From contig NC_135250.1 in NCBI RefSeq assembly GCF_964204865.1, positions 27,404,001 to 27,468,000 of the forward strand: 64,000 bases of DNA. Direction: 5' to 3'. Of this stretch, positions 530-41,551 are shown one piece after another. The notes under the pieces were generated by a model. That model made no database searches. It saw nothing but the letters and a program-made list of their open reading frames with translations, and was not told the DNA's origin. Position numbers and translations under genes: made by a program. The DNA is from Styela clava. Its lineage: Eukaryota. How positions within the stretch are numbered: position 1 is the first letter of the stretch; the number at the start of each line of letters is the position of its first letter.

Positions 530-3500
530 AATTGTGTTAGTTATTATAAAATGTAGTTCGCAGATAGTGACGGAAGATGGATTATAGGCATGCACAGCCT
601 TATATTGCAACACGAAATTCCCACTTCGAATACTGTTTTCAAGGAGCTCGCGATAATCATCACTACGACGATTGGAACTTACCTGTTAAAAGGCGGGATT
701 TATATTGTGTAATTATCATTATAATAGTTTTGTGCTGGTGAAATTGTTGAAGTGTTACGATAATCACATTTCCATTGATTTTATTTTGAGATCCAGAATT
801 GTAGTCTCAATAATATCAGTGTAATATTTTTTATTTGAATAGGTTGAATAGAAAGTTTTTGAAAAGATCTAAGCAATGAAAATATCTATTGTTCAATATA
901 TTTATGAATTAAATTACTTACCTCAGTCTGAAAATATTCACTATATTTATTATCGTTTGCTATTACGGTTACCATAAGGAAAGGTTGAGTCATTCTTGTA
1001 GATACCGTGTTGTACTTCCAATAAGGTCTAAATAATTTCCAAAGCAGGTTAATATTATAATACATTTTAAACACTACATTTTTTGCACATTTTTGAAGTT
1101 TGTCACCCATTTTACTGAGCCCGTTATGTATGGCCATTCCCTTAATCGTTTGATCAACAACCTTACTCACGGCTTTTTAAAACTTGCTTGCTTTCGTTGA
1201 ATTTGGCAAAATGGCGCTTAAAAGACCCGAGCAAAATTTAAAGTATGCGACCCAATAGATGATAATGTTAAAATTTACATAAGACCAAATGGGCGATCCA
1301 GTTATCAACGATACAATTATTTATTTATTACTATTCGAACCGATGTGATAGTTACAACTTTAGACTTACGAGTTGTGCATGAAACCGTAATTTAGATTAA
1401 TACCCCGTCTTGAGTTTCGAAAGTTGATCTGAAGAAATAAAAGTTAATTTGCTTGTTATACTAATCGATAGGGACTGTGTAATAAGAATGGCATAAACTT
1501 TTTTTGGCCTTTATTTGGCGTACCTTTCGCCAAGATTGTCCAAATACCATTCAGTCATTTTCTAGAATGTTGTGTAATTTTTCTATGATTTCATAATTTT
1601 AAACAAATTTGTTGTAGTCATAGTTACCAATGTTATAGAAAAAACTCTCTATAAAATTTATTTTGAATTATGTACCTGAGGATGAATCAAAAAATGCCAA
1701 CTTGAAAAGAATCTTCCCAATAACGTAATTTATTTGTATGTTTAAACCTTATTCTTTTATATTTTTGCTGTTTAAATAGATATGTCATACATATTTTAAT
1801 TTCATACAAAATATCGCCTTACGAAATTTCCATTTGAATTGTACATTAAGCTGTTTTCTATATTGTTGTTTACATTTCCGCTATGCACATACGAATAAGT
1901 GTACCAGTTCGGAATGATTGCTTGAATGGCTGAAGATTTTTTTTTCAATGCTTGTATGACAGATCGTGATCTTTGCATTGCAAAAAGTTCATCTTTTTCT
2001 GGGTATAATACATTAATATTTTATTTCAAAAAGTTCAAATAAAAATTTATAAAAGTATAATATATCAAAAAAAAACTGTTTCTATTTTTCTTTAATCTAG
2101 GGCCTTCAAATACATTGCAACATTAATAAAAAAAAGTCAAAGTAGGTATAAATATAACTATATATGCACCGCAAGAAACTTTACAATACCAGATTCTATA
2201 ACAAGAGGATATCTTTCAGAGTACAGAGATTGCAGATTTCCACCAGCTTTTTGTAAAAAATGATTTTTTGTTTTGTAACGAAGATGTGCTCGACTTTTTA
2301 ATGATGCGAGTGGGGTGTTAGAAGCAACATGCCATATCATGACATCTTTGGCCTATAAGAGAAATATAAAACTTATTTCTAGGGTTAAAAATTACAAATA
2401 TATGAAACGTTAGCTATTAAAAAAATAATTCAATGATCAATTACAATAATGAAGCCTTTAAGTTTAAAAAATTTCTTTGTGGGACACTCCAAATGCAGCG
2501 ATCATGAATGTAGTCTATCAGCTATTATAAACCAGTTCCTCGACTCTGTGACTTAGTTCAAAATAACACGTAACAACGACTTGGAACAATTCATACAGCA
2601 TCTCATTTCTAATACGTTTACTCACATTCAGCGCATAGTAAGCGGTGTTCTTGTAGTCATCATTTGTACAGTTTCGCACATCTCCGAATATTTTTTTGTT
2701 TTCCCAGTTATTATTTTCTGTAAATAAAAATACTATTCAATTAAAATAATAGATCAATAGAGAAAACAAAAATATTGTTTAGAACTATTTTTTTCAAAAT
2801 ACTATAAAATTAAAAATGATATTAAGTTATGGAAAAAGTTTTCTCAAATGTATTCGATGTATTCAATGATTCTCAAGATGTCTATAATAAGTTTTGTATT
2901 ATAAAGACCTTTGAGTTTGACAATGTACGACACTTTTTTCTATTGTTGGCTACTTTTACATCCTTACTCTCACTACTTGATTTGTAATTTGCCCATCGAT
3001 CTTTGTCGTCACATTTCTTTGTTATGTCTGACTCATGTATGCTAGCAACCAAAGTCCAGCCACCACCGTCTGTTTTCATGTCACAATATGCCTTTTAGAA
3101 AAAACGAGAGAACAATGCTCTAATACAAATGAAGACGAAAGCCGCGCATAGTTTTCTCTAGAGTAGAACTTTAACTGACTACCAATCTTGCCAAAACGAT
3201 TGGAGGAGAAACGTGGGGGAAGAAGTATCTACATGCGGAATGAAAACTTGTTCCCATAAAGTCGATTCGCACATTAGTTACTGCGATAAGCGAATATTCA
3301 CAGCAAAAACCCAATGCCTTGAAAAGCAATAACCATTTATCAAAATGACCAATAGGTTCCACATTTGCTTAATTTTATGAAGCATGCTCAATTCGGAATT
3401 ACAAAATCATCAATTATGTTGAACAAAAGATAATTCTACCTCGATTGCCTCAAATTCGCGTTCTGGTTTGATGTCATAAATTCCACTCTTTCTGATTCCT

Positions 3501-5837
3501 TCTTTCAGTAATTCATTGCAAGAAGATGCTGTAGACATTCTGATATTTGGTGATGATGAAATCTAAAAATAAACCAAATTTTTTTTAATATATTTTCTAT
3601 TGTGTTCGCTTATAAATCTTGCCCCAAATAGAAAAATACGTCGTAGAATGACTGGATAATGAGATTGTTTTTGCTTAGTAAAATGAAGAAGAAAATTATA
3701 AATTACTCCTCCATATTTGAACTTTAGTAACATATCAGGTATCGGGTACTGAATTGCTCTTTTCTATGTATTGGAAATCCCATCGATATATATTTAGAGT
3801 AAACGTTTTCAGGATTCTTTTTTAATATTTGCACCACGTGAATACTGGTTTTTGACACACGTGCAGTTCTATAATCTTAATAACCTTATTCAAAATAGGA
3901 TTACCGCCATGTATAATTATCTGAACTGCGGGAACTAGGCATAGGAATGTACAAAAAATGATGTTTTCCCAAAACATATCAAAGTTTGAACTTTTGGCCA
4001 TGATGTAGATTCTTTTTAGTAAAAGGAAGAATTATCTTAACGACAATGACTACTTTCTAGTGTGTTATATACAAAGGTTGAAGATTCAACCATACTATTG
4101 TATTTAAAATGTGCAAAATGAACGGAAAGTATCTGAACTGTCGCCTACAATATCTTTCTATCATAATTGATTTTCAAGTGTCATGTGTTTCATAACAGCT
4201 TCCGGTGGCCTTATGTGTATATGGTTCAATGAAACAGCATAAGTATATTAATTGGTCCATGTACCCTTTGGCGAATTACCAAAATAAATGAAGGCATTTA
4301 AATAAAAAATTAATTAATTAAAAATAAATAATTAAAATATTTATGCGTCTCATTTAGGCTAGGTCACTGCAAGCATCCCACAAAAACTTTATTGAAATTA
4401 TTTTTGATAATCAATTTATCTTATTTTGCTAATCTATTTTTTTGTAAACAATACAATGAGTAATAGCATTCGATCTTCTAAAAACCTAATTTTAGGATAG
4501 TATATAAAAGGTCATTTGTTAAGAAAACAACTGCGTAAATAATTGTATGTTGAAAATTTTTTGATTAAAGGAATCATCCTTGTTGCATAATATAAAAAAT
4601 GTTTCAAAGCTTAGGCCAGGACACAAATACGATGATGTCCACCACGAATAAAAAATATTTAATTTTCATTAATTAATATCAGTTTTTCAAGAGTTTTATT
4701 TTTTAGTAACACAAATGTAACTCCATAACATTTTAACAAAAATCCACCTATATTTCTGTGCAGCAAGACTGTTAATTGATAAATATTAACTTTTTTTATT
4801 CGAAAACTGCAGTATCATTTTGTAGACGCTCTTTAGCAAATTTGTCACATGACAAAATTTAGCAAAGGTATACGTGATGCAAGAGTCATTTTATTATATA
4901 CACCTATTCATTCTAAACCTTAGTACTCCCTTGCCCCTTTGGTGACCCGGGTATCAATATTAGTCATCGGTATATTACGCTGCAAGGGCAAATAGGATGA
5001 TTAAATTACCGCCGATGCCAACCTGTTTGTATGTTAATCCTTGAATAGATATAATCGTGACCATTGAAAGAACAAAAATGACTCCTGAAACTACTTTTGC
5101 AGCTTTCCACCTTTTACTTGCAACCTTATTTGAAATATCAACTTCTGGTGAAGCAACCAGAGGGATCGGTGTAATCTTTTTTTGATACGTTTTCTGCTCA
5201 AAAGGTTGTGGACTGCGAGGCGGCGGGAGGTCACGTGATCTATCATAAACAGAATGATTTGGTGATTGACTTAAGCTGAGTTGTGCTGGTTGACTTCTTG
5301 ATAGTTGACTCCCGGGCGTGTTGACAACTAAAAAAAAATATTAAGCGTACATAAATATATAATAAAACAATGTTTGAGTATAAAATAGAAGAATATCGTT
5401 TGTTTCTTTTATATATATTTTGGTACGATGATGGGCTATCTATTATTACTTTATATAATGTGCCTAAGTTTATCAAAAAAAAAAAACGATACAGAAGTCT
5501 AGTGTTTTGCAAGTGTAGTATGCACTACGACATTGCTTAAAGTGTACTAAGAATTTCATGAAGTGCAATTTCCAACTAACATAGATAATAAATGGAGAAT
5601 TGTACAAGTTTTTACTTTGCGTACGGTTCACATAACCATAAACACATCGTAATATTGTTATTTCTGAATCTTATTTCCTAAATATATTTATTATATTGCA
5701 CAACTTTATAATGCTTATGTTTTTAAGGCCTATAAACACAAAATATTTAATTTTTTTAGGGCTTACATACCTTTCGATGAGTTTTCATATCTAATTGCAT
5801 CTTCATAAACATTTTCATCTTCATAACTTTGCCACAT
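530..5837 (-). CDS. Intelectin-like fibrinogen-related domain protein with N-terminal cytoplasmic tail and type II TM anchor; 3' end not resolved (may run off the window)
   Basis: Phase-compatible GT-AG exons: 5837-5771 (MWQSYEDENVYEDAIRYENSSK), 5327-5023 (Pro-rich, then KRWKAAKVVSGVIFVLSMVTIISIQGL), 3562-3440 (SSCNELLKEGIRKSGIYDI), 3091-2929 (AYCDMKTDGGGWTLVASIHE..C...DRW), 2717-2626 (NNWENKKIFG....TNDDYKNTAYY), 2352-2190 (AKDVMIWHV...HLRYKTKNHFLQKAGGNLQSLY), 1998-1823, 1428-1370, 1027-922, 682-530. The middle exons carry hallmark intelectin motifs. Joining the two 5' exons to the FReD exons rests on phase compatibility only. Confidence 0.8.
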
Positions 5838-7453
5838 CTTATTTGACTTACAAGATTGCTCGATAAAACTAAGTTTGAGAAAAATCTACAAATTTAAACA
5901 ATATTTATGACAAGGAATATAGACACTAATAATAATATAACTTGTTTCCAATAAATTATGTTAGAATCTGAATAAAATAATACGATTCAATCTAAAATTA
6001 TATTTTTTCGTTTCAATAAACGTTTTTGAGGAAAGTTAGACTTTCCACGTCTGGCATAAATTTTATATCTTTTCCCGATTTAGTAAAAATCGTTGTTTGG
6101 AATTTTTCCAATGTTGTAATGTTACCGTTCCTAAGCATTCACTAATTTAAATTTATTTTTTGTAGTTAACTTTATTTGTATTAAGCTTGCTAATAAGGAG
6201 CCTAACAACATCATATTAATAACCGGCTACATAGACAACTACGTAACCACGATACCCGTTTAAAAATTCACTCGCGAAAATTTAATTCTTTAAACTCATC
6301 TTGAATTTTTAGTTAATACAATTCACACAATTGAAAACTGCATACTGCTTTGTTACTGCTGGCCAAGATCTCAAGAAATGCCATTGTCACTTTATACCCT
6401 TCCGTATGTGGCTGTGGCTTTTTGACATCGAATGTTGTACAATTCAGCAACGTATGCAAGGAAACGTGATAATGTTATGAAGGGTAAAACAAAGTTTATA
6501 ATAAAGCTGATAAATAATATAACCTTAGAGAATGTTATTGTACTATATTGTTTAATAACCACTACCGTCATCTCATTTCCGTTAATCGTTGCTTATTTAA
6601 AAAAAATATTGAAGTCAAATATATATCGTTTATTCATAGTATTTTAGAAGTATCCATACAAAAATACAAAATTAAGCATTTTTAATATTGGGTAACTGCA
6701 TTTACTGAACAACAGTTTAAAAAAAATTATTTATTCAAAAAATAAATATAATTTTCTGATGGACAAAACATATTAAATAATGTCTCATTTATCTTTATGG
6801 TTTCTAGGTGAGCTGTGTTTTCATAACGAGAGAGCAATTTGTATATATATGTTAATAAATTTGTACAAGTATCACAATATACTATTTGTTATGTACTGCT
6901 TTATCGGAGCAACTGAAACAAAAAGTAAAAATTCGCGTTGTGGTACCATTTCCAAAAGTACATAACAACGGACACGAAGGAGTTTGGTTGAAATAGTAAT
7001 ACCACTAGGAGTCTAGTTCAATTAAAATATTTTAATCATTGCCTACAGTTTGAGTGGGTGCAATCTCCTAATTTTAGTAGAAGTTTTCAAAAGAATTATT
7101 CTCAATTGACCAATCCATAGTCTCCGTATTAGACATATAAAGAGTGAAAAATAATTTTAAGAAGACATATCGTCAGATATGATCGAGTCGATGTTTTATT
7201 TTTATTTGAAAAATTTATAAAACCATAGATTAGAAAACACACAGCAGATGGCTGTAATGAGTCACTGCATAAGCCTTGTCGTCGTGAGTGTTGTTGATTG
7301 CTTGGTCTAAAGAATATAATGCTCTACGTGAACGGGACGGCTTGGGGTTTTAGTATCTCTCAACTAGTTTGGGCCTTTGTTTTATTAATGTGTGTATACA
7401 GGGGCAATGAAAAATTAATTTTTTTGTTTGTTTTTTGTTACAGATAAGTAAAT

Positions 7454-8367
7454 ATGAGTACATTGGCTAGAAATGCAAAAGTGGACTTGGAAAAATTTAA
7501 TATAATCTCAATATGTGACCAAGGAAATGAAACAGATATGGAAGACGCAGCTTGGAAAATTTTCAGTGGAGTAAAAGATGCGTCAACTTTGGAAAGGCGG
7601 TCATATCGAGAGAGAATGAAAATTATCGCAACATCTCCAGAAAGTCGGTCACAAAAATACGCAGTCAGTGAGCTTAAATCTCATATTTCAAAAACATCTT
7701 CCGTGGGAAGTCGTATTTCGACAATGATTTTTGCTTACAAGGGTGGAACTCAAATTGTTGAAGAAGCGTTCACTTTTCAATCACTATCAGGAACTTTACT
7801 AGATGAAGGGGAGCAAGAACGGCATATCAGCAAACGCATTCAGCAAATACGTGAATCTACGGTGATCGTCGCGATTGAGGGAAAGAACAACTTACCGGAT
7901 GATTTGGCAAAGGTCTGTGTATAATAATAATATTCTATTGCTAAATACGCTCACAAACTGAAGTGAAAACCAAAAGTTTTCGATTGTTAATGTTGTATGT
8001 TCTTCATTGCGACAAATTAGTAGTACCATGTTTTAAATAGCTAGAATTAATCAACTAGGAAATTTGTTTAAATCACGGTTGTTGAATATGTTTTCGCAAT
8101 GTGATATTTTTTATTCAGATTTCTGTAAATTTGAGAGAGCGTTCAGACGTAGAAGGGTCAGTAGAAGAGCAGACAATAATCGGACCCACCGGGAAAAGCG
8201 CTCATGAGGTCAACTTCAATTTTAACCAAAAAAAAAACCTGAAAAGAAGTTTACTAAATTCTTTGGCAAGTTCTAGCGCGGCCTCATTGAATATAGTTGA
8301 GTTTTTAATCGATACTGGAGCGCTAAAATTTATATTATCTATTCTTGGCATTACATTATCAATTTAA
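7454..8367 (+). CDS. Lipase-like alpha/beta-hydrolase pseudoenzyme 'A' (copy 1), ~235 aa, hydrophobic C-terminal tail
   Basis: Exons 7454-7912 (ends DLAK|GT) and 8119-8367 (cag|ISVNLR). Shares EDAAWxI, IFA-xxxG and AK^IxxNxR..D motifs and the intron position with B and C; AYKGG replaces AHSHG. Confidence 0.85.
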
Positions 8368-12282: not shown

Positions 12283-13414
12283 TCACGGCTTTTGTGAATA
12301 TATTGGATCACATATTTTGACCCATTCATCATTTTTGTGTTTTTTAATCCAGTGCATATTTTCGGGTTCGTTTTTTGTGGTCGTCTCTGTGCAACCACAC
12401 GGCACAGAATCGCCTTGCAGCCTCAACGTTTTCCAAATGAACCTCGTTATAGCACTATCGCTCGTATAATCAAACAGTAAATGTTTTGTTCCTTCAGTTG
12501 ATGCGGTTTTCAATGTTTTTAATTGAAAGAAGTTTTCAAGTCGGACCGATATTGACTCAGAAGAAGGTCTTGATTGGGACTCCACTTCTCCGTTATGAAA
12601 CTTTATTATTTCTGAGTTTTCACTGCTTCCTCCATACACCTTGTTGCCAAACTTAGATTTTACATCTTGTATAAATCTCAGGTTAAGACATATCTGCAAA
12701 GCAGGTCAATAAATATTTATTAAAAGTTGAATACATCGCAAACTAAATTATTGAACAGTTATTTTTTTGTTCATTTTAGAACAACTTGATTGACCGGATG
12801 CATCTAAGTGGTTCAACTACCTAAAAAAACAAAATGTTTTTGGATGAGTCAGCAAGAATTTGTTACTTCAATATTTTTGAATGTCAAAGATCATGTGCGC
12901 ATTTGTGTTTGAACATGGGAATATCGAAGAAACAAACCTTAGCATAGTCTTTTGGAATTGTGTCGATGCCACCAAAAGTGAAGACTGCTAAATTATCTTT
13001 AATTCGATTGAGTTTATTAGAAAAGTCCACTCCACTTTCATTCAGACGATGTTTGACAAAATAGTAATAAAGTGAATTTTCACCAATTGCCGTTCTAACA
13101 ATTTTAGCTCCATGACTGTGTGCAAAAATAATGCGAGTTATTCCATTTTTACAGTGAGGCATATGGAAAAGAATTTTGTGAATCTTTAACACAATTAACG
13201 TGGGTACTTCTGTCAAACTGCTTGCAGTGTCTACAATTGACTCAACGTCCCTGTAATGATTAATTCTTTTTCTTTCTGAAAAGTTGTGTAATTTTTTACA
13301 TATCTCCCACGCTGCATCTTCAACTTCATTGATATCGGCTCCAAAACCTCCAATTAAATATGCTTTGAATCCTTTCTGGCAAACTTCTATAACATTGTAA
13401 GTTTCATCAGCCAT
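12283..13414 (-). CDS. Lipase-like alpha/beta-hydrolase 'B' (copy 1), ~295 aa
   Basis: Exons 13414-12938 (LIGGFG, IIFAHSHGA, VFTFGG, KDYAK|GT) and 12693-12283 (cag|ICLNLRFIQD...KHLLFDY). Nucleophile-elbow Ser followed by candidate Asp and His in canonical order. Confidence 0.88.
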
Positions 13415-14379: not shown

Positions 14380-15202
14380 TTACATTTTAAGATAAACGTC
14401 TATTGTTTTGAGCACGTCTTCATTATTCACATACTCTCGCAAAACATGATTTGCTTTATCCCATGATGATTGACTTAAATCAGCAAAAACTGTCGAGGAA
14501 AAGTTTTTTTTTTCAGATTTTGTATCTTTACTTTTGGTCTTCGGAATTGTTTTCTTGTTGCACTTTGTCGCTCTCCCGACGAGCTTTTTTCCAAACGTTG
14601 CAATGGTATCATCCTCCAACCGAATATTTAAACAAGACTAATAAAAAAAATATGAATATGAATTAAATATGAAAAAATATGTTTTACACGGTCTCCTCTA
14701 TAACAATATAATGCTTCTTCTATCGTTTTACCTTAGCATAATCTTTAGGTATGTCTTGGATCCCCTCCAGCGAAAATATTGCTAATCGATCTCGGATCTG
14801 TTGAATTGCGTTCTCGATATTTTCTTCAGGTGTATTTTCCTTTATAAGAAACTTCCTTAAGGCCTCAGTTTTGCAAGCATCATATATGATCAGTGCACTG
14901 TGACTATGACCAAATAAAACATGAGTGATACCATTGCAGGTAAATTGTCTTTCATCCCATAACAATTTATGTATTTTTATGATGTCTGATTCTGAACATG
15001 CTTTCATTGACTTTGAGGCGTTTACAATCACACGAATATTTTCCTCGTGATTTTTCTTATTTCTATATGAAATATCATGCACGTACGAGTATATTGTCCA
15101 GCACGAATCTTTAAGTTTCGGTTCAATACCCGAATCTCCTTCTCCTCCATTATAACCCCCAACAAGTACAAACATTTGCCTTTTATCTATGCCGCTTGCC
15201 AT
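14380..15202 (-). CDS. Lipase-like alpha/beta-hydrolase 'C' (copy 1), ~242 aa
   Basis: ATG at 15202 (MASG, aligned with MAGS of copy 2). Exons 15202-14732 (LVGGYNG, LFGHSHSA, KDYAK|GT) and 14637-14380 (tag|SCLNIRLEDD...NHVLREY); 94-nt intron. Confidence 0.85.
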
Positions 15203-16700
15203 GAGTATTTTAAGTCCAAAAAATACTGCCAGTAATCGCTCCTGTTTTAAAAAGATCTTGAACACTCTTAGCTTGGTATCGTAAAAAGCGCTCGGTGTTC
15301 TGTATCCCCCTCGCGTGATCGCGCGCATTATGGCTGCCAATACCCTGCGAAAGTGAACCCTTTCAATGAATCGCTTGTAAACGAATGTAGGTTTGGATTG
15401 ATGGACAAAGAATTTCAATTATGTGATTATTTGAACCATTGGCATACTATTAAACCAAAGGCATACATTCGACATATTTACTATAAGAAGCGGAGGTTGT
15501 AAATTAAATACCGGTTTTAAATGCCATACTTCATGACCAGTCTTATCGCTGAAATAATCAATACAGGAATATTGTATTCTTTAAATCCAGTACAGTTGTT
15601 CTTAACACAATAGAGTGTATTTAACGGGTTTCTCAATAGTGTATCAAGCCTTCAACGCCCAGACAATAATATCAAGTTTCATCCGCCAACAAAAACAAGC
15701 CCTATAAATTAGGCTGTTGGTATATGCCACGATTTGGCCAAACAAGATATTTTAGAGTGAAGGTGTAATACTCAATCACGTACGAGTATATTGTCCTACA
15801 TGTATCTCTAGGTATTAGCTTTATATCCAACCATTCTTTGTAAAAATATTTGGCGTTTATTTATGCCGCTTGCCATGAGTCTCTTTAGACAAATAAGTAC
15901 TGCTAATCGCGCTTGTTTTAAAACTATTTCGAACACTCTTTGTTTGGTAACACAAAAATTTGCTGAGTGTACGCGTATATCGGGCTTTCTGGCTGCTTAT
16001 ACCTAACTAAAAAGGGCTTTCCAAATTAAGTGCAGCAATACAACTCTAACCTGGTACACATACTATATTCAGGAAGTGCGCCATCTTGGTGCACACACTT
16101 CTGGAGCTCCCTAAATAGCACCCTTTCCACGAATCGCTTGTAAATGAATGTAGGTTCGATTGATGGACAAAGAATTTCAATTACGTGATTATTTGCACAA
16201 AAACGTGCTGTTTTTGTTCGAGTACAATTGTTACTAATACAATCGAGTGTATTAGAAGGATTTCTCAGTGTATCAGGTTTCATTACGTTCGGACAGTACT
16301 ACTTATTCGGTTTATTCAAGCTTTATAAATTTTGCTGTGCGTATATGCCACGATGGACCTAACAAGATTTCTGGAGTGAAGGTGTAATACCGTACGAGAA
16401 TTTTGGGCAACATATAGCATCAGGACTTGGTTTCTTATGCGATCATTCTTTGCTCCTATTATAAGCCCCAACAAGTTAAAATTTTAGGTCGCTATCTATT
16501 CCACTTGCATTAGGTTTTCAGGCCAAATAGATAGGCTACTGCTCGTAATCCTTCTTGCTCCAAAAATTTCTCGAATACTCTTTACTTGTCAACATAATAA
16601 TGCACTGAGGACCCCCCCTCCCCTCCGCCAAAACTATATATTCTGTTTATTCAAGCCCTATAAATTCGGCTGTATGAATATGCAACGGCTGACTGATGAA
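15080..16700 (-). repeat. Tandem triplication of the gene C 5' end plus upstream region; two degenerate 5' fragments at ~15780-15960 and ~16390-16600
   Basis: cgtacgag...tatgccgcttgccatgagt...gaacactctt recurs at ~15083, ~15780 and (more decayed) ~16392; aatcgcttgtaaa.gaatgtaggtt.gattgatggacaaagaatttcaatta at ~15369 and ~16132. Confidence 0.75.
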
Positions 16701-24223: not shown

Positions 24224-26881
24224 TTGAAACAGAGAATTGCTAAATCGTAATAATTTTCCGGTATACTGATCTATGTATTAAAACCTGCCACGATTCAACC
24301 CGTGGTTTTTGTATGACCTGTCATTCCATAAAGTATCTCTTTTGAACCGTTTAATAACAATAGGAAATAAATTATGTGTGGCCAAAGGTAGTATTATATG
24401 TTTAAATTACTAATACATGCTTGGGACGTGCTTAAAAAGTCACAATATTTCTGACAAAAGAAAAATAATATTATCGTTTGGTCATTGGGAAAGCTGATAC
24501 ACTGTTAAGAAACACGTTAAATAAGCTAGAAAAATAATTGTGCTCAATATTTCGATTCTGCTACGTGTAGTGAATTAATCGACCACAGTACATTACATTT
24601 CAACCAGTACCTTGTCTTATTCTTTTTTTTTCATTTTGCAAATACTGAGTTTAACCGCCCATGTGTCGGTGTTGCAGACGTAGACAATAGAAATTCACGC
24701 TTGGAGGGTTGCGAATAATAGAACGTTTGTACATATTTGGAAAACAATAGTCGATTTTACCTAATATATATTTAAAACTTGTACATCTAATTGTATTCAT
24801 TTGATAACCCTGTGTAAGTAAAATAAATTCGCATATGTAAATACTTTGAGATATTATGTGATAGTCCGACACACTCAAGCAATATGAATATGTCAATAAC
24901 AAAAAATGAAACTATGGATATAGATTCACGTAATATTTACAAAAAAAATATATTCATATGAGCCTTATGCCAGATATGATTAAATAAAAAAGACATGTTT
25001 GTATTGATTAAAGGCAGTGGAACTTCATATGTATCAGCTATGTAATATGTAAAATCAGAATAAAGCACAAAAATTGTTTAATGAATTTTTTCCAAATTTT
25101 TAATCGTTTTTTAATCGCTCAGGAAAAATAGTTTAACCAAAACCAGACTGGTCTGCAATCATAATGCATTCTAAATACAGTTCGCTCTTTTAACGGCTTG
25201 GAATATACAAATATGTCAAAGTCAGTCTTAAAATTATTCCTAATACATCTTGGTTTTTCTAAGAAATCTATAAAAAAAAAAAATTAGCGAATGTTGGACA
25301 ATAATGTTACTGTTGGAAATACAACATGGACATATCAACGTCAACTTATTTTTGATACATTTCATTATCTTAGATTCATAGTTTAGACTAGATTTTGATT
25401 TAAATAAGAGTTATATAACTGTTTAACAAGCAAGGCGTTATTCAACAATTTTGATTGAGTCACATTTAAAAGTCTCATTTAATGGTATGGCAAAGGTTCA
25501 AATCTGCACGTTTTGGTGCAAATAAATCCCATAATAAAAATTCTTTGCCCATCATTTGAATCTACATAAATTCTTAAGAGATGCATTGAGAGGGTGCGTT
25601 TCATTTGAGCAGCTAGAAGGCGCAATGTCACGCGATGGCGATACCCAAAACCAGTGTCATTGTTACGTTTCCAACTAAAGAGAATTAGAGATATTTTCAG
25701 AACAAGCCCGATCATGAGCAATTCTTATTTAGGCAATTCAGAGGTATAAGTACCGATATGAAGGTAACTAATTTTGTTCGTCTATATTACATCAAGTTGT
25801 GTAAAGGGAATAAAACCTCTGGACAGGAGATATATTCTGTTGGCTAACACAGACAGCCTTCGAACGCGTAGTAAAACTAGATATTGGAAAATCGGAATAA
25901 CAGTATGGCCTCACCCTAAACACATACTACCTTATTTGGCCTATTTTGAGTATATGTCAGGCTCCATCGACTTAGATGAAAGACAAAAAAAATTTTTGTC
26001 GAGGATAATAATGAGAGAAAAGTTAGATCGACTATAAATATAATTCTGATTTCATCAATCAAACTTGTCACGAAAAAGACGTTTTCGACGCATGAAGCGT
26101 CCCAAAATGTTTTAAAATTACAAAGGGTATTTATCGACACTATATATTGTTTTGTACCTCAAAGATGTATTAAATGAAGTGAACAATTACTTATTAAAAT
26201 ACAAGAAACCTGGATAAGATATATTGAGATCTGATTTCTTAATAATATTGAAATTATAAATGGACTTCATGGACACCCTGCACATTGTGCTGCTTCATAT
26301 TGTACCCTGTTTTAAATGGAATTCTTTGATCAGTAGTTCGAATCGTACATTTATATACATAATAAGCATTGAAAAGCTGCGGTTTAGTTGAGTACAGCTA
26401 GGGGGCCCTATGTCACGCGATTGTGTAACCCGAAACCGGACGCTTTATTTCATTTTTCAGCAAAAAAGTGTTTGATTTATTTTCGAAACAAGTTCGATCA
26501 CGAGCAGAGCTTATTCGGCTTAATATGCGCATGACAAACGCGACATGGATAAAGGACGAATGTTTAGTAATATCGGTGGATATGATGAAATTAATGATTT
26601 TTCTTTTAATTACATATTTGCTTATTTTAAGTCATAGCCGTTCAAAAACAAAAACGTTTAATTATATACCATACACCAGGTGGATATAATTAGTTACGCT
26701 TCAATCTTGCAAATCGAGTGTTTTCGAATGTTTGTTTCAAATAGAATAACAGCGCCGAATAAGATAGGCGGTTTAAATATCCTACGACTACTTGAGCACT
26801 CGATACTCGATTTGTTCCTCTTGGTATACAAGGGCAATGAAAATTAAAGTGCTATATTTTAATATTTACAGAGCGTAAAGT

Positions 26882-27743
26882 ATGAGTAAATTGGCTGGAA
26901 ATGCAGAAGTGGACTTGGAAAAATTTAATATAATCTCAATATGTGACCATGAATATGAAACAGATATGGAGGACGTAGCTTGGAAAATTTTCAGTGGAGT
27001 AAAAGACGCATCAAGGTCTGAAAGACGGAATTATCGTGATAGAATGAAATTTATTACAACATCTTCAGAATTTCAGTCCCAAGAAGACGCAGTCAGTGAG
27101 CTTAAATCTCTTATTTCAAACAATTCTTCTCTGGAAGGTCATATTTCGACAATGATTCTTGCCTACAAAGATGGAACTCAAATTGTTGAAGAAACCTTCA
27201 CGTTTCAACCATTATCAGACCTTCTACGTGAATCAATAATGATCGTGGCGATTGATGAAACTTCAAACTTATCGGATGATTTGGCCAAGGTTTGTATTTA
27301 TTTTTTTCCTATAAAATAAGAGTCGAGATTACAGCGAGAATCAAGTGTTTTGACAGTTTATTTTGTTTCTTCCTCATTGGGGTAAATTAAGAGCGCATGT
27401 CCCAACTATAGTAGAAAGTAACAAATATAAGTTTATGATATCTTTATTGGATTGGTGATTAATATTACCCATTATTATGCGTTGTTTTTCATAGATATCT
27501 GTAAATCTTCGGGCGCAGTCAGACATAACAAGAATGCAGGAAGAGTACAAAGTAATTGGAGACAGAGGAAAACAAGCTCTCGAAGTCAGCTTCGGTGTAA
27601 AAGAAGAAAAACCATGGACACATAACGTGCTATCTTCAATATCAAGTTCAAGCACCACTTCGTTAAACGTGATTTCCTTTATGCTTAAAACTGGAGCTTC
27701 AGCCTTTATATTATCTCTTCTAGGCATTAAACTGCCTATTTAA
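26882..27743 (+). CDS. Lipase-like pseudoenzyme 'A' (copy 2), ~218 aa
   Basis: Exons 26882-27289 and 27495-27743. AYKDG at the elbow position; in-frame 17-codon deletion relative to copy 1; same hydrophobic tail. Confidence 0.85.
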
Positions 27744-31840: not shown

Positions 31841-32040
31841 TATCAATCAGTTATTTTTCTGTTCATTTTAGAACAACTTGGTTGACCGGATGCAAGGACG
31901 GGTGCATCTAGGAGTTTTGAATAACTAACAACAAAAAAACATGTTTTTGGATGAGTCAGCTAGAATTTGTTACTCCAATATTTTTAAATGTCAAAGATCA
32001 TGTGCAAATTTCTGTTTAAAAATGAGAATATAGAACAAAC

Positions 32041-32517
32041 CTTAGCATATCCTTTTGGAATTGTGTCGATACCACCAAGAGTAAAAACTGCTAAATTGTC
32101 TTTAATTTGCTCGAGTTTTTTGGTAAAATCCACTCCATTTTCAGGTCGACAATATTTGATGAAATACTGATGAAGTGAGTTTTTCTCAAGTGCAGTTCTA
32201 ACAATTTTAGCTCCATGGCTGTGGGCAAAAATAATGCGTGTTATTCCATTTTTACAGTGGGGCATACAAAAGAGAATTTTTTGAATCTTGTAAACAATGG
32301 TTGTCGGTACTTCTGTTGAATTTTTTGCAGTGTCTACTATTGATTCAACGTCGCTGTAATGACCGATTCTCTTCCCTTCTGAAAAGTTGTATAACTGTTT
32401 GCATATCTCCCACGCTGCGACTTCTACTTCATTGATATCGGCTCCGATATCACCAACTAAATATGCTTTGAGTCCCGTCTGACAAACTTGCTTCACGTTG
32501 TCAGTTTCAACAGCCAA
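32041..32517 (-). pseudogene. Truncated extra copy of gene B exon 1 (B'')
   Basis: 159 open codons with AHSHG and GYAK|GT, but TTG instead of ATG with an in-frame stop just upstream; no exon 2 found beyond the intronic transposon. Confidence 0.75.
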
Positions 32518-33108
32518 GTTGGAGGCAAGTCAAAATTAGACAATGAAATATTTAAAAATGCAACAATTATTTTTAGGTCAATATTTCACAATTAGAAATC
32601 TTTATCAACATTTTAAATCACCGGTTCAGCAGTCATACCATGAAACAATTAAGACATGGTAATGCTTTTAGTTCAGAGATTTTATAAAAAATGAAAATTG
32701 CAAAATATTCCTTTAATTAGAAAATTAGTAGTAATTCAAAATTATATTAAAGTTTGAGTAGATTAAAGTTGAAATCGTTTTTCGAAATATATTTACTATT
32801 CCTAAGGAAATCTCATATCACCGCGTAATATATGAGATTATAAGAAATTCATTCAACAATAAACAAAAACCGTTAAATGAACTGTATATGGCCCTGTAAA
32901 GTACCGTAACAAGCGATGCACATATAGAAATCTAACTATCGTGCACACCATTTTGTATATATATATATATGTGTGTGTGTTCGTAATAGCCAATTCGGCA
33001 TGAATTCTAAACATAAATGAACTTGATGTGATTTTTTTTATATTGTTAAATACACCATTTACACTCATATAATTTAGAAACTGTAAAATTCAAATCCTAT
33101 TTCGCTCA

Positions 33109-34457
33109 TCAGAGATTCGTTTTGTAGAAGTATTTTGGGGCGCGAGCGTACGACCATGTAATATTGTGTCTTTTGATGTTCCATTCCTTATTTTCAAGTT
33201 TCTTCTTGGTAGTCGTCCCTGAGCATCCACATTGCACAGAATTGCTCTCCAACATTAAAGTTTGTAAAATTTTCCCCATTACAGCCGCGTCTTTTGTATA
33301 TTCAAATAGTACATGTTTTGTTCCTTCAGTGGATGCTCTTTTTAATGTTTTCAACCGACAGAAGTTTTTAAGTTGATCCAATTTTGACTCAGTTGTTGAA
33401 GATTCCACTTCGCCGTTGTGAAACTTTATTATTTCTGAGTTTTGGCTGCTTTCTCCATAAATAATGTTGCCAAACTCAGAATTTATATCTTGTTTAAGCC
33501 GCATGTTGAGACATATCTGCAAAGTAGATCAGAAACTATTTATTAAAAGTTGAATACATCGCAAACAACATTATACAAGGTGTCCAACAGGTATTACCCA
33601 ATTTTATAGTAATGACAATTGTAAGTTTTAATAAGTTTTGGTGTGTGATAAATGAGAACTATAACGTCCAACATGTGTAACATCAATTTCAATACGGATT
33701 GATTACAAATCATTTTACAATTAAAAAAAAATTCCTTTGATTATAAATACTTTACCATGGGCCGAAACTTATAGGACACCCTGTATTAATCAGTTATTTT
33801 TCTGTTCATTTTAGAATAACTTTGTTGACCGGATGCAAACACGGGTGCATCTAAGAGTTTTGAATAACTATTAAAATAACATGTTTTTAGATGAGTCAGC
33901 AAGAATTGGTTACTCGAATATTTTTGAATGTCAAAGATCATGTGCACATTTGTGTTTGAACATAGGAAAATCGAACAAACCTTAGCATATTCTTTTGGAA
34001 TTGTGTCGATGCCACCAAGAGTAAAAACTGCTAAATTGTCTTTAATTTGCTTGAGTTTTTTAGAAAAGTCCACTCCATTTGCATTTTGACGAGATTCAAT
34101 GAAATAATCAAGAAGTGACTTTTCATCAAGTGCCTTTCTAACAATTTTAGCTCCATGGCTGTGGGCAAAAATAATACGAGTTATTCCATCATTACAGTGT
34201 GGCATATGGAAGAGAATTTTGTGAATCTCGGAAACAATGGTTTTCGGTTTGTCTGACAAACTTCTTGCAGTGTTCACAATTGACTCAACGTCCCTGTAAT
34301 GAATAATTCTCTTTCTTTCTGAAAAGTTGTATAACTGTTTGCATATCTCCCACGCTCCAGCTTCCACTTCATTGATATCGGCTCCGAAACCTCCAATTAA
34401 ATAAGCTTCAAATCCTTTCTGACAAACTTGTTTTACATTGTTAATTTCATCAACCAT
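33109..34457 (-). CDS. Lipase-like alpha/beta-hydrolase 'B' (copy 2), ~294 aa
   Basis: Exons 34457-33981 and 33516-33109; AHSHG, CLNMRLKQD, KHVLFEY. Confidence 0.88.
33576..33783. mobile_element. Tc1/mariner-type MITE in the intron of B copy 2
   Basis: TA-caaggtgtcc...ggacaccctg-TA; absent from the homologous intron of B copy 1. Confidence 0.75.
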
Positions 34458-35287
34458 TTTTATTGTATAATTTAAAATCCTATAATTATTTAGTACATCT
34501 CAGATTAAATAAAATCTTTTAAAATCAGACAAAGAAAAATTAGGCAAATACAAAGTCAGATTACAAATTGAATGAGTTCAAATTTATTTTTAATTCAAAT
34601 ATCATAATACCTCTTTACGATATATAGAGTAATAAGAAAGACAAGGCATTTGAATCAGGGTCTTACTTCAAATAATATTTTAATAGTATATTTGGAAATT
34701 CTCCAATTTCATTTTAATCAAATTCAGTGAACTTTCGGCAGAAAACGATATTTACAACTACTAGACAATAATAAGGTACAATAATAATAATATGACGCAT
34801 TCGAAATTCAAACGGTTTTGCAAGTGACCGATACTAAGTATTGTGTCGCAAACAACGTTCCCTCTAAGAGCTTGGTAAGTTGCGCGGAATAGAAGGCCAT
34901 GGAAGCTCCAAAAAAAAGTCTGCACGGAAAATTAGAGCTTGTATTTAGCTTATCTTGTTGTCAATACTCATGCACTTTTTCAAAAAGCATAAAAAATGAA
35001 ATGCAATAATTATCAATATAAATGTAAATTGGAAAAACTGAATAGACTGTATATCAAAATATCAAAAAAATCACACAGATATGAGTAGGTTTCACTGATT
35101 ATTCTGGAAATCATTTTATTTTATTTTAATATTGTAGCAAAAGAATTTGATTAATTCCATTGATATAGTTTTCTCAATGTGTTGATATGAAAAGATCAAA
35201 ATTATGCAATGTAATACCTCAGAATACCAATAATTTATGTCGATATTTCATAATGAGAAAAGTTATTCTTTAAAATAAACTTTAATT

Positions 35288-36429
35288 TCATTTAAGATAT
35301 GCATCTATAGTTTCGAGCACTTTCTCGTGATTTACATACTTTCGTAAAATATGATTTTCTTTACTGCACGATGCAGAACAGGACAGATTTGACAAAAACA
35401 TTTGTTTCTGTGACTGTACAAATTGTTCAGGTTGTGGTTTTGATATGATTGTCTTGTTGCTGTCTGCATATTTCCCAAAAAGCGTTTTGACTGATTTTGC
35501 AATACCATCATTATCAAATTCAATATTCCAACACACCTGTTAAAAATTATATGTTAATCATTATATATAAATGTGAAATTGTATTTAGAAATAACTAAAA
35601 AGCTGTTTAATTATTTTATACATTATTTGAATAACAAGAGTTCAGTTTAGCGATTCCTAATTTAAAAATCTTCAATTCATATTTAATATTTCCTAATCAT
35701 GGCTATAGCCGTTGGTTTTGGAACTGCTTTTTTAAATACCCAATTTAATTTTAAAAGATAATCAGAATTTACTGTTTGATTTATCGTGTTCTGCATAATA
35801 TTAATTTAATTTAGTTCAAAATGAAGCTGTTTTGGATGAGATAAGATGCGCGCAATTCAACAGCATAGATTGAAATTGTTAATTACCACACGATATCAAA
35901 TATATCTTTCAATGAAATGTAGCAGTTGTAATTTGTAATATACTTTATTTGACTGCGATACCTTTGCGTAATCCCCAGGTATGTCTTGGATTCCTCCCAG
36001 GCTAAATATTGCGAGTCGACTTCGAATCGTTTTAATTATGATCGGTATTTCTCTTTCTGGTGTACGTTTCTTTATAAGAAAGTTCCACAGGGCCTCATCT
36101 TTAAGAGCTTCATATATGACTAGTGCGCCGTGGCTATGACCAAGCAAAACATGAGTTATACCATCAAAAGATTCATCATTGTATAACATTTCATGCAATG
36201 CCGTGATGTCTGCTTCTGAATTAGCTTTGAGATATGAACTTGAGTCGTTAACAATTACGCAGATATTTGGCATGTGATTGGCTCTACTCCTAGTGCTAAT
36301 ATCATAAACATACGAGTATATAGTCCAACATGCATCCTCAAGGAATAATTTTCTTTCCGGTATTTTTTCGCCCCCATTGTAGCCACCAACTAGTAAAAAT
36401 TTTGGCTTCCTAGCTACGCTGCCCGCCAT
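35288..36429 (-). CDS. Lipase-like alpha/beta-hydrolase 'C' (copy 2), ~238 aa
   Basis: Exons 36429-35962 (LVGGYNG, LLGHSHGA, FSLGG, GDYAK|GT) and 35536-35288 (VCWNIEFDND...NHILRKY). Confidence 0.88.
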
Positions 36430-40081: not shown

Positions 40082-41551
40082 TCATTTCTTCTCACAAAGA
40101 TATTTCAATTTTTTCGAGCATCTTTCGTCATTCAGTAGAAAATAACTATCAGAACCAGTTTTCACACAATCTTGGTCATTCTCTCTACCGCCATCTGGTT
40201 GTCCAAAAAGCCATGGAATTGTTCGAGGATTTGCGACAGTTCCATTTGACCAGACAAACGTGTTTTCTTGGTTTATATCGTCCAGACCAATCCACACTGG
40301 AAATTTGCCAGACTTGATCAATGGCACAAGTTGACTGCAATGTAATTACTACATCATTAGTAAATTTTATTATTAAATAGAAACTCGAAAGCTTTGTGTC
40401 GATTAAAAAAATTTCCATGAAGAATGTCCTATTTAAAAAATAAAAATCTAATATAAACTGAAAGAGTATATAAATACATTATATGCCTACTGAATTAGCC
40501 GAAGTATGGGCCACAAAATCATGACAGTTGAACAAATGTACTCCTGTAGTATGCAAACCAAGATCGCGGACACCAGAACGTGGTATGCGTGCCAGGTTAG
40601 AGTTAGGCGGTAATTTCAGGTACAAATACTACGAGAGTCACTTGGCTAGTGTCCGAACTCGTGATAGAACTGAAATCAGAAAATGGGAATAAAATTATGG
40701 TCGAACCCAAACCTGGTACACATACTACGTTCCGGTGTTGTCATCTTGGTTCGCATATTACATGAGTACCGAACAAAACAGATACAAATGATATTACTAT
40801 TTTACTTGTGAATTGTGTTATCACGAATCCCCTCTGATGACAGCATTGCCCCCTCCTTTATACAGTTTAATTTAGCAGTTGTGTAATCCACTTTATCATC
40901 GAATATTTTATAGTAGAATTTGTTACTTGCTTTGTACCAAGTCTTTAGTTGGTCCATGTTGTTGAGTCTGTATATTACACTTTCCATTTCTGTTAAACGA
41001 GACTATCATTGAATATACAATTATGCTTGAACTCGTATATACTGCAGTTGCAAAAGAAATTCTTAATTAAACCATAACAGACAGACTTAGTTTAAAACGC
41101 AAAAAAATGGAAATTAAAAGTCCCAGCTGCACGCAAAATATAATCTCACCTTTTTGCAGTCCCACTATGAGGTCGTGTTCTTCAGACCGCTGTTTCAATA
41201 TAGAATTAAACTTTGCTTCGAATTGACTTTGAAGCCCTATAATTAATCATATAATATGTTGCGTTACCTAGCATAATAAAAAAACACTCCCTTTTTAAAA
41301 AGTATATATTTACGTTTTTCATATTCCGTGTATCTTTTTTCATCATCACTTTCAGGAAGTTTTGTAAATCGGTCGCAAGTAATTTGAAAAGTTTGTCTTT
41401 TCAAATAATCCTTCAATACTTTCTTGGTCTTTGCTGTTTCGTCACATTTATCTCCGTCGCATTCGGATTTGAAACTACAATTAAATTCCTCGCTCAAACA
41501 TGTGGTCAATATTGACCACACAACAACAAGAATTTTCAAAAATCCCATCAT
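40082..41551 (-). CDS. Secreted C-type lectin (QPD, galactose-type) with Cys-rich N-terminus and coiled-coil-like neck, ~253 aa
   Basis: Exons 41551-41314, 41236-41150, 40989-40806, 40334-40082. Signal peptide, WIGL, FVW, QPD, LND..C....YLCE. Confidence 0.9.
40539..40770. mobile_element. Palindromic MITE, long form; related copies ~41755-41960, 25750-25960, 43370-43585, 57990-58210, 16040-16110
   Basis: gtactc...gagtac termini; inverted aacctggtacacatactac arms. Confidence 0.7.

What the first reader, a model, noticed from the sequence alone, without database searches (positions are those of the whole stretch)
5023..5837. Intelectin-like domain apparently attached to a type II membrane anchor with a Tyr- and Pro-rich cytoplasmic tail
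Seen: two upstream exons missed by the ORF track encode YEDENVYEDAIRYENS, SVYDR, LPPPRSP, then basic residues and a ~20-aa hydrophobic stretch. They end in phase 0, matching the first FReD exon. Established: characterised intelectins are signal-peptide-bearing secreted lectins; acidic-context YExx/YxN and PxxP motifs are typical SH2/SH3 docking sites. Inference: a signalling pattern-recognition receptor, transcribed divergently from hydrolase A.
Basis: partly seen in the sequence, partly recalled or inferred. Interest (0 to 1): 0.7.

Follow-up and report, generated by a model that had tools for sequence, protein, structure and literature searches.

The report
Membrane-anchored split intelectin of sea squirts
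This sea-squirt gene joins a predicted membrane anchor and a conserved tyrosine-bearing inner tail to an intelectin (immune lectin) fold that is interrupted by an extra unnamed domain and lacks key sugar-binding residues, so it likely acts as a signalling cell-surface receptor with a changed ligand rather than as a secreted lectin.

Summary
The two 5' exons belong to an intact 15-exon, 650-aa minus-strand gene that runs off the window's left edge. One RNA-type contig shows the 5023->3562 joint (17 letters on the short side), and a RefSeq Styela clava model of this gene has it too. The exon 1-2 joint was not seen in RNA. A YExxxxYxN pattern hits 14 places in the genome (reversed control 0); 12 lie just upstream of intelectin exons. 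Membrane-anchored relatives occur in Ciona, Clavelina and Phallusia. First, the intelectin fold is split by a ~245-aa domain without a Pfam family, predicted to be a beta-supersandwich and bounded by phase-1 introns. Second, the diol-binding calcium site is not kept (E262-H263 in 0 of 19 insert-bearing versus 23 of 27 insert-free relatives). PxxP is at chance level and there is no ITAM or ITIM. Best reading: a type II receptor that likely signals through Src-type phosphorylation and a Grb2-type adaptor; the ligand and signalling are untested. The scan noted membrane intelectins twice before in another genome, and the insert may already be in print (recalled, not read). New variant of a known kind.

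The parts
5771..5837 (-). Exon 1: start codon and tandem-tyrosine tail motif (aa 1-22), phase-1 donor
   Evidence: Sequence. In all 12 family loci found by the motif there is a Met shortly upstream (MWQ in 9 of 12) and a phase-1 GT donor 2-3 codons after it.
5781..5807 (-). YEDAIRYEN motif (YExxxxYxN); candidate phosphotyrosine docking site
   Evidence: Pattern hits 14 places in G000 versus 0 for the reversed control; 12 of 14 lie 1.0-3.4 kb upstream of an intelectin exon on the same strand.
5023..5327 (-). Exon 2: rest of the predicted cytoplasmic tail, basic flank, predicted membrane anchor (aa 23-124), phase-0 donor
   Evidence: X1 contig covers 5085-5323, and another X1 contig joins 5023 to 3562; RefSeq model P0002.
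5038..5100 (-). Predicted signal-anchor helix, aa ~99-119
   Evidence: Hydropathy 2.2; K/R 4 before versus 2 after; the matching stretch of the neighbouring paralog is a helix at 89-114 in the AlphaFold model.
5209..5229 (-). Pro-rich DLPPPRSP stretch (one PxxP); shared with the nearest paralogs, not enriched over chance
3440..3562 (-). Exon 3: short stalk and start of the fibrinogen-like lobe (aa 125-165)
   Evidence: Spliced in X1.
2968..3091 (-). Exon 4: YCDM..GGGWTL and structural-calcium segment HESDITKKCDDKD (aa 166-206)
   Evidence: Pfam Fibrinogen_C, E 2e-4; spliced in X1.
2626..2717 (-). Exon 5 (aa 207-237), holds DDYKN
   Evidence: Spliced in X1 with no gap.
2190..2352 (-). Exon 6: end of the intelectin N-half (aa 238-291), phase-1 donor
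   Evidence: Homology to P0001/P0004.
1823..1998 (-). Exon 7: first exon of the inserted domain (aa 292-350)
   Evidence: tblastn with P0004; model.
1370..1428 (-). Exon 8, inserted domain (aa 351-369)
   Evidence: Phase-compatible GT-AG exon aligning with P0004.
922..1027 (-). Exon 9, inserted domain (aa 370-405)
530..682 (-). Exon 10, inserted domain (aa 406-456). Exons 11-12 (rest of the insert) and 13-15 (intelectin C-half, stop) lie left of the window, G000:C1:27403821 down to 27402316
   Evidence: 12 matches of this exon in G000.
7448..8364 (+). Divergent neighbour, two exons, hydrolase-like paralog without the AHSHG motif; not shown to be part of the system

Best explanation
The gene encodes a predicted type II membrane protein whose outer part is an intelectin fold split by a ~245-aa inserted domain and lacking key residues of the classical sugar site, and which likely works as a clustering receptor that would signal through phosphorylation of its conserved tandem tyrosines. 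Shown here: the exon chain and open frame, the anchor-to-intelectin joint, conservation of the YExxxxYxN exon across 12 loci, the insert, and the changed sugar-site residues. Predicted: topology (98-aa inner tail, one helix, 20-aa stalk), and that the two halves refold into one intelectin body with the insert as a separate beta-sandwich. Inferred: (1) the kept structural-calcium residues stabilise an oligomeric head, as in vertebrate intelectins; (2) the ligand is not the exocyclic 1,2-diol but something bound by the remodelled pocket and/or the insert, most likely a surface glycan or glycoconjugate of microbes or other cells; (3) multivalent binding clusters the tails, a Src/Abl-type kinase phosphorylates the acidic first Tyr, and pY-x-N recruits a Grb2-type SH2 adaptor (consensus motifs recalled), giving an activation or uptake signal in hemocytes or gut/pharynx epithelium. 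Confidence about 0.9 for the membrane-anchored architecture and about 0.5 for the signalling mechanism.
For: Joint in an RNA-type contig and in a RefSeq model; the X1 letter differences S88T, S134Y, T135P, I147M are shared with P0002, so the contig is an allele of this gene. 15 exons, all GT-AG, 650 aa, 57% identical to the 657-aa neighbour XP_039258470.1. Motif at 14 places versus 0 control; 12 of 14 upstream of intelectin exons in four clusters on three contigs; 11 of these 12 have an anchor-like exon within 1.5 kb. In 20 tails: YE 13 (4.3 in shuffles), [DEN]xYE 8 (1.0), YxN 11 (4.5), YE....Y 9 (0.15); more K/R before than after the helix in 19 of 20. Anchored relatives in Ciona intestinalis, Clavelina, Phallusia and C. 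savignyi models. Paralog model pLDDT 82.5; the halves align with human, frog and lamprey intelectin at Z 38-39, rmsd 2 A, over 269-274 residues. Insert model pLDDT 91.9; best matches are beta-supersandwich domains of carbohydrate-active enzymes, Z 8.3-9.1, rmsd 3-4 A. The same domain stands alone in 2-8 copies in large ascidian proteins, some with CUB, Sushi or VWD domains.
Against: No phosphorylation, binding, localisation or expression-level data. The RNA overhang is 17 letters from one contig at depth about 4 in a run only guessed to be RNA. The exon 1-2 joint is unseen, and P0002 uses a shifted frame in exon 1 and an acceptor at 5240. The tails are related, mostly Styela paralogs, and the motif was defined after seeing them, so the shuffle values overstate independence; 7 of 20 tails lack YE. 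No ITAM in 20 tails and ITIM at chance. Insert gain and loss of E262-H263 map to one clade (100/99), so they are one event, not a repeated correlation; one insert-free protein (P0028) sits inside that clade. The insert's fold scores are near the 7-8 level that the tool calls common, Foldseek TM-scores are only about 0.26, and a shared fold shows no function. The insert's best-conserved motif (DGGxDM[FY]D-like, 13 of 20 copies) is eroded in this gene and its Styela clade (0 of 8). Structures were predicted for the paralog P0004, not for this gene's own product.
Confidence: 0.5

Rival explanations
1. It is a membrane-tethered capture or uptake lectin (like FIBCD1) whose tail serves sorting or endocytosis rather than signalling.
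For: FIBCD1 is a type II, fibrinogen-domain endocytic receptor (abstract start of PMC9994688 in the listing). Intelectin-labelled genes mark endostyle epithelium in ascidians (passages of PMC10980280 and PMC9953650; which genes is not known). Several relatives have short tails without the motif (P0013, P0056, P0160).
Against: None of the five tail tyrosines of this gene is in a Yxx[LIV] context, and that context is at chance across tails (5 of 20 versus 6.4). The conserved feature is the acidic YE..YxN pair instead.
Confidence: 0.2
2. It is no longer a lectin: the intelectin body is a scaffold and the receptor binds a protein ligand (adhesion, cell-cell or allo-recognition), as other fibrinogen-domain proteins do.
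For: Sugar-site residues are changed (E244->T577, N260->Y593, E262->Q595, H263->Q596). The insert's acidic motif is eroded in this clade. The family is expanded, with at least 12 loci, and alleles differ at 5 residues within the ~200 codons covered by X1.
Against: W288 appears kept (W618; via P0003) and 7 of 19 insert-bearing proteins keep E262. Natural intelectins vary in pocket residues and still bind sugars (passages of PMC9434060). The insert's fold neighbours are carbohydrate-active proteins.
Confidence: 0.2
3. The hydrophobic stretch is an unusually placed cleavable signal or a shedding site, so the working product is a soluble lectin-like protein.
For: This gene's helix is among the least hydrophobic of the family and ends in small residues. 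Insert-bearing relatives with signal peptide and collagen stalk exist (P0020, P0161, P0021, P0023). RefSeq lists paralog isoforms without the anchor (P0005, P0159).
Against: A 98-aa N-region with a motif conserved over 12 loci is unlike a signal peptide; most relatives have helices of mean hydropathy 2.4-3.6 with a positive-inside bias.
Confidence: 0.08
4. The 5' exons are a separate or mis-joined unit, or this copy is a decaying pseudogene.
For: The older RefSeq model of this locus is frameshifted at two A-runs and the 3' part is a separate protein (P0002, P0018). The inverted neighbour copy has a stop in the exon-10 equivalent. Five of 18 ATG-started frames in intron 2 are hydrophobic with a phase-0 GT.
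Against: The window's frame is open over 15 exons. X1 shows no gap in exon 5 and joins exon 2 to exon 3. The same exon order holds in paralogs and other species.
Confidence: 0.03

Closest known systems
Secreted chordate intelectins / X-type lectins (human ITLN1 4wmq and 6usc, Xenopus XEEL 4wmo, lamprey LSSL 7e1e)
   Same: Whole fold in the predicted paralog model (Z 38-39, rmsd 2 A, 33-36% identity); structural-calcium segment largely kept; 6 of 8 conserved cysteines.
   Different: Inner tail and predicted anchor instead of a signal peptide; ~245-aa insert at the loop that carries C199; C199 and C259 absent; E244, N260, E262 and H263 not kept.
RefSeq-predicted ascidian proteins of the same clade (Styela clava XP_039258470.1, XP_039258435.1, XP_077974221.1; Ciona intestinalis LOC100185179; Clavelina XP_076822543.1)
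   Same: Tail + anchor + intelectin N-half + insert + C-half. The window gene is a member; the architecture is already in automatic gene models.
   Different: They are named 'uncharacterized', 'intelectin-like' or 'fibroleukin-like' and carry no annotation of anchor, tail motif or insert; tails vary between lineages.
Ascidian intelectins surveyed by Hayashibe et al. 2017 (PMID 28656472)
   Same: From memory, its abstract speaks of an 'additional sequence' found in ascidian intelectins, which is probably this insert. Only the title was seen, in a reference list.
   Different: Unknown: the paper is not held, so whether it reports the anchor, the tail motif or the insert's fold could not be checked.
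FIBCD1 (vertebrate type II fibrinogen-domain receptor)
   Same: Type II anchor with an outer fibrinogen-related recognition domain (abstract start).
   Different: The domain here is intelectin, not the ficolin/FIBCD1 type (PDB sequence E 1e-40 versus 3e-4); there is no long coiled-coil stalk (recalled for FIBCD1); the tail carries a tandem-Tyr motif.
HemITAM type II C-type lectin receptors (Dectin-1, CLEC-2; recalled)
   Same: Works like: a type II lectin-fold receptor with an acidic tyrosine motif near the N-terminus.
   Different: Different fold; no YxxL here, so Syk recruitment by hemITAM is not indicated.

Membership tests
Intelectins (X-type lectins) | Fibrinogen-like lobe plus intelectin-specific C-terminal region forming one fold | tested here: met
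   Two sequence stretches match intelectins; paralog model aligns over 269-274 residues, Z 38-39; the window gene is 57% identical to that paralog.
Intelectins (X-type lectins) | Structural-calcium consensus HENXXXGXCTXGD plus two further Asp (PMC9682848, passages) | tested here: inconclusive
   Reads HESDITKKCDDKD (184-196): H, E, C and the last D kept, N and both G changed; D227 and D614 kept. Calcium binding itself was not tested.
Intelectins (X-type lectins) | Ligand-site calcium and diol residues (human E244, N260, E262, H263, E274; lamprey equivalents in PMC9682848) | tested here: not met
   T577, Y593, Q595, Q596; E274 falls in a gapped stretch and cannot be placed. E262+H263 in 0 of 19 insert-bearing versus 23 of 27 insert-free proteins.
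Intelectins (X-type lectins) | Aromatic box at 288 and 297 (PMC9434060, passages) | tested here: inconclusive
   W288 aligns with W618 in pairwise alignments through P0003 but slipped in my multiple alignment; position 297 shows no aromatic residue and is poorly alignable.
Intelectins (X-type lectins) | Eight conserved cysteines (PMC11084424, PMC9682848) | tested here: not met
   C139, C168, C192, C584, C598, C612 match six; the equivalents of C199 and C259 are absent. That these two pair with each other is recalled.
Intelectins (X-type lectins) | Secreted ~35-40 kDa subunit with an N-terminal signal peptide | tested here: not met
   650 aa; first hydrophobic stretch at aa 99.
Intelectins (X-type lectins) | Oligomeric state and calcium-dependent glycan binding | not testable with these tools
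   Needs protein work.
Type II single-pass membrane proteins | One internal hydrophobic helix, positive charge on the N-side, disulfide- and sequon-bearing C-terminal domain | tested here: met
   One helix at ~99-119; K/R 4 versus 2; no Cys in the tail, 8 Cys and 4 sequons after it. Prediction only.
ITAM / hemITAM / ITIM receptors | Yxx[LI] motif(s), or [ILVS]xYxx[LIV] | tested here: not met
   None in this tail; ITAM 0 of 20 and ITIM 1 of 20 tails (1.5 expected).
SH3-ligand (PxxP) tails | PxxP above chance | tested here: not met
   One PxxP here (72% of shuffles have one); 6 of 20 tails versus 5.0 expected.
Beta-supersandwich (galactose-mutarotase-like) domains, for the insert | Shared fold | tested here: inconclusive
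   Top rows are nearly all of this type, Z 8.3-9.1, rmsd 3.1-3.8 A over 134-170 residues, under 10% identity; Foldseek TM about 0.26; no sequence support.

The most novel reading that the evidence does not exclude
Ascidians turned the secreted intelectin into an expanded family of signalling receptors: a mobile, unnamed beta-supersandwich domain was shuffled in as a phase 1-1 exon block at the loop beside the sugar site, the classical diol-calcium site was given up, the insert became the recognition unit, and a non-ITAM tandem-tyrosine exon (YExxxxYxN) couples it to Src/Grb2 signalling. This would be a new innate-receptor class with a new ligand-binding domain in the sister group of vertebrates.
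Probability: 0.25. Interest if true: 0.75.

Novelty: new variant of a known kind. Interest (0 to 1): 0.5.

Why it matters
Intelectins are described as secreted lectins, and how they signal is unclear. A family in the vertebrates' sister group that carries anchor, tail motif and recognition head in one chain makes that testable with single constructs. It also shows two ways of remodelling a lectin at once: domain insertion into a fold, and loss of the classical sugar site. The inserted domain has no Pfam family, recurs in tandem in large ascidian extracellular proteins, and now has a confident model to test for glycan binding. The interest is tempered because the architecture is already in automatic gene models, the scan met it before, and the insert may be in print.

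Tried and rejected
No RNA holder on record was listed; X1 is only guessed to be RNA. Runs X6, X7 and X9 gave no cover of the gene, and X1 none of exon 1, exons 6-10 or intron 2; this is no evidence of absence. RNA support for the joints of the neighbouring paralog was not obtained, so the exon 1-2 joint stays open. A scan of intron 2 for a private signal-peptide exon found 5 of 18 ATG frames that are hydrophobic with a phase-0 GT; none can be excluded or supported by sequence alone. The insert: no Pfam or NCBIfam family shared by more than one of 20 copies; no PDB sequence match below E 0.26; no 111-408-aa protein found with the profile (longer proteins not searched); Atlas look-alikes were unnamed clusters (0.93) and no named hit. 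PxxP, ITAM, ITIM and Yxx[LIV] as signals were rejected on shuffles. Two motif hits (L049, L057) lack a Met-motif-donor exon shape and a nearby intelectin exon and were treated as chance. A link to the divergent hydrolase-like gene was considered; only adjacency supports it. The weak IpaB/EvcA Pfam hit (E 0.009, below cut-off) lies on intron-derived letters upstream of exon 9 and was dismissed. Literature: no paper describing a membrane-anchored intelectin came up in searches (listings only, open-access library); search 37 for residue names found nothing. Wesener 2015, Wangkanont 2016, Kozak 2018, Yan 2013, Doolittle 2012 and Hayashibe 2017 are not held under the ids tried. No complex was folded: two copies of the ectodomain exceed the size limit.

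Full report
Observation. On the minus strand, exon 1 (5837-5771) encodes MWQSYEDENVYEDAIRYENSSK and ends in phase 1. Exon 2 (5327-5023) encodes SVYDR, LPPPRSP, a basic patch and a hydrophobic stretch at aa ~99-119, and ends in phase 0. Exon 3 starts at 3562 in phase 0.

Are the exons joined? One contig of run X1 (guessed to be RNA, depth about 4) splices exons 5, 4 and 3 at GT-AG sites and ends in 15 loose letters identical to window 5025-5039, which occur once in the 194 kb examined. That is the predicted joint, but with only 17 letters on the short side, under the tool's 31-letter bar. A second X1 contig covers 5085-5323. The other three runs laid showed nothing on this gene. Independently, RefSeq model XP_039258469.1 of Styela clava (P0002, from another record set) crosses the same joint, and shares four residue differences with X1, so X1 is an allele of this gene. 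P0002 is itself broken: it shifts frame at an A-run in exon 1, uses an acceptor at 5240, and shifts again in exon 5. X1 has no gap in exon 5 and covers the letters upstream of 5240, which favours the window's reading. The exon 1-2 joint of this gene was not observed; it is present in RefSeq models of the neighbouring paralog (P0001, P0004).

The whole gene. Using the neighbour's 657-aa model, the gene continues beyond the window's left edge to G000:C1:27402316: 15 exons, all GT-AG, one open frame of 650 aa, 57% identical to the neighbour over 637 aligned residues. Exons 6-15 rest on homology, not on RNA. It is the last of eight intelectin-like loci in about 133 kb, all eight with insert exons. 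The genome gave 35 matches to exon 4 (a lower bound).

The tail motif is conserved. A DNA pattern for Y-E-x-x-[hydrophobic]-[RQK]-Y-x-N matches 14 places in the genome and its reversed control none. Twelve of the 14 lie 1.0-3.4 kb upstream of an intelectin exon-4 match on the same strand, in four clusters on three contigs; all 12 have a Met just upstream and a phase-1 donor just after, and 11 have an anchor-like exon within 1.5 kb. In 20 predicted tails (this gene plus 19 relatives chosen for having an internal hydrophobic helix), YE occurs in 13 (4.3 in shuffles), YxN in 11 (4.5) and YE....Y in 9 (0.15). PxxP (6 versus 5.0), Yxx[LIV] (5 versus 6.4), ITIM (1 versus 1.5) and ITAM (0) are not enriched. 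The tails are related and the motif was chosen after seeing them, so these figures show conservation, not independent origins. More K/R lie before the helix than after it in 19 of 20. Named relatives with the anchor come from Styela, Ciona intestinalis, Clavelina, Phallusia and C. savignyi; several others could not be named.

The neighbour matches solved intelectins in two stretches, 131-300 and 543-657. Between them lie about 240 residues that replace roughly ten residues of vertebrate intelectins. In this gene they are exons 7-12 (aa 292-530), bounded on both sides by phase-1 introns, the pattern expected of a shuffled exon block (established knowledge). The same domain stands alone in 2-8 copies in large ascidian proteins, some with CUB, Sushi, VWD or trypsin domains. 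It has no Pfam or NCBIfam family and no PDB sequence match. AlphaFold gives a confident model for the paralog (mean pLDDT 82.5; tail disordered, helix 89-114), in which the two halves rebuild the full intelectin fold (Z 38-39, rmsd 2 A, 269-274 residues). The insert alone folds at pLDDT 91.9 as a beta-rich domain whose best matches are supersandwich domains of glycoside phosphorylases, hydrolases and lyases (Z up to 9.1, rmsd 3-4 A). That is a modest score and shows no function; Foldseek TM-scores are about 0.26. Insert-bearing intelectins also occur as secreted, collagen-stalked forms, two of them encoded whole on contigs of about 2 kb, which supports the insert being part of one chain. A tree of the intelectin halves (42 rows; 11 short rows left out) puts all 18 insert-bearing rows and one insert-free row in one clade (100/99); anchored forms need 3-4 changes on it.

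The sugar site is changed. By the residues given in passages of PMC9682848 and PMC9434060, mapped to human numbering through the 4wmq alignment, the structural-calcium segment is largely kept (HESDITKKCDDKD, D227, D614). The ligand-site residues are not: E244->T577, N260->Y593, E262->Q595, H263->Q596; E274 cannot be placed; W288 appears kept. The cysteines matching C199 and C259 are absent; their pairing is recalled. E262+H263 is present in 23 of 27 insert-free and 0 of 19 insert-bearing proteins, but this is one clade and so one event. The insert's own best-conserved motif is present in 13 of 20 copies and eroded in this gene and its Styela clade. So neither site can be assumed to bind sugar here.

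Mechanism. Most likely a type II receptor. An oligomeric, calcium-stabilised head (inferred from homology) binds a multivalent surface ligand other than the classical 1,2-diol; clustering brings the tails together; a Src/Abl-type kinase phosphorylates the acidic tyrosine and pY-x-N recruits a Grb2-type adaptor (consensus recalled). I put the architecture at about 0.9 and this mechanism at about 0.5. Rivals: uptake receptor like FIBCD1 (0.2), protein-ligand receptor (0.2), cleaved or shed form (0.08), mis-joined or dead gene (0.03).

What is known. Passages read describe intelectins as secreted multimeric lectins (PMC8185196, PMC9434060, PMC9682848, PMC11084424, PMC3048546) and list intelectin-labelled genes in ascidian endostyle and immunity (PMC10980280, PMC9953650, PMC10433773) without mention of an anchor in those passages. 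Searches (listings only) found no paper on a membrane-anchored intelectin, but the key ascidian papers are not held. From memory, the abstract of Hayashibe et al. 2017 mentions an 'additional sequence' in ascidian intelectins, so the insert is probably reported; I saw only its title. Two earlier notes of this scan describe membrane-anchored intelectins in another genome; none was listed near this place or by sequence.

Verdict. Real feature; a member of an ascidian clade of intelectin-fold proteins, but not a canonical intelectin by the ligand-site, cysteine and secretion tests. New variant of a known kind; interest 0.5.

Noticed in passing
window 7448-8364 (+), 12887-13414, 14723-15418, 31987-32529, 33789-34499, 35899-36435 (-), 26879-27316 (+): A tandem family of alpha/beta-hydrolase-like genes with an AHSHG/GHSHG motif and no Pfam match above cut-off in the six ORFs scanned. 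The two + strand copies read AYKGG and AYKDG there, so they likely lack the nucleophile serine; the 7448 copy ends in a short hydrophobic C-terminus.
   Followed up: partly
G000:C1:27390195-27397760 (+), loci L031-L032: Inverted paralog, tail to tail with the window gene and closest to it in the insert exons (82% in exon 10), with an in-frame stop in that exon: a likely pseudogene.
   Followed up: partly
G000:C1:27378169-27386705 (-): The neighbouring paralog is split into two proteins in newer RefSeq records (XP_077971278.1 and XP_077973684.1) but is one 657-aa protein in the older record (XP_039258470.1); the window gene was likewise split (P0002 and P0018).
   Followed up: partly
P0006 / P0155 (Styela clava LOC120347880; G000:C14 near 16.66 Mb): A family member with two copies of the insert in tandem inside the intelectin fold.
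   Followed up: no
P0025, P0033, P0027, P0036, P0088, P0090: Large uncharacterised ascidian proteins built from 2-8 copies of the insert domain, alone or with CUB, Sushi, VWD, trypsin or weak Ig matches; P0090 has a C-terminal hydrophobic helix.
   Followed up: partly
P0062 (Clavelina XP_076814314.1): An insert-free intelectin with an internal hydrophobic helix and a WSC domain, outside the insert clade: possibly a separate route to membrane anchoring.
   Followed up: no
window 40085-40345 and 41267-41554 (-): A C-type lectin domain exon (Pfam Lectin_C, E 2e-10) with a likely signal-peptide exon upstream.
   Followed up: no
window 52063-52365 (+): ORF ending in ..PVRVGVAILIESISDISEVNM.., resembling the start of a Cys-loop ligand-gated channel domain (recalled); no Pfam hit for this piece.
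   Followed up: no
G000:C1:27344580-27355570: An 11-kb gap between the exon-7 and exon-9 equivalents of one paralog, and a 3'-only fragment at 27362622-27365274.
   Followed up: no
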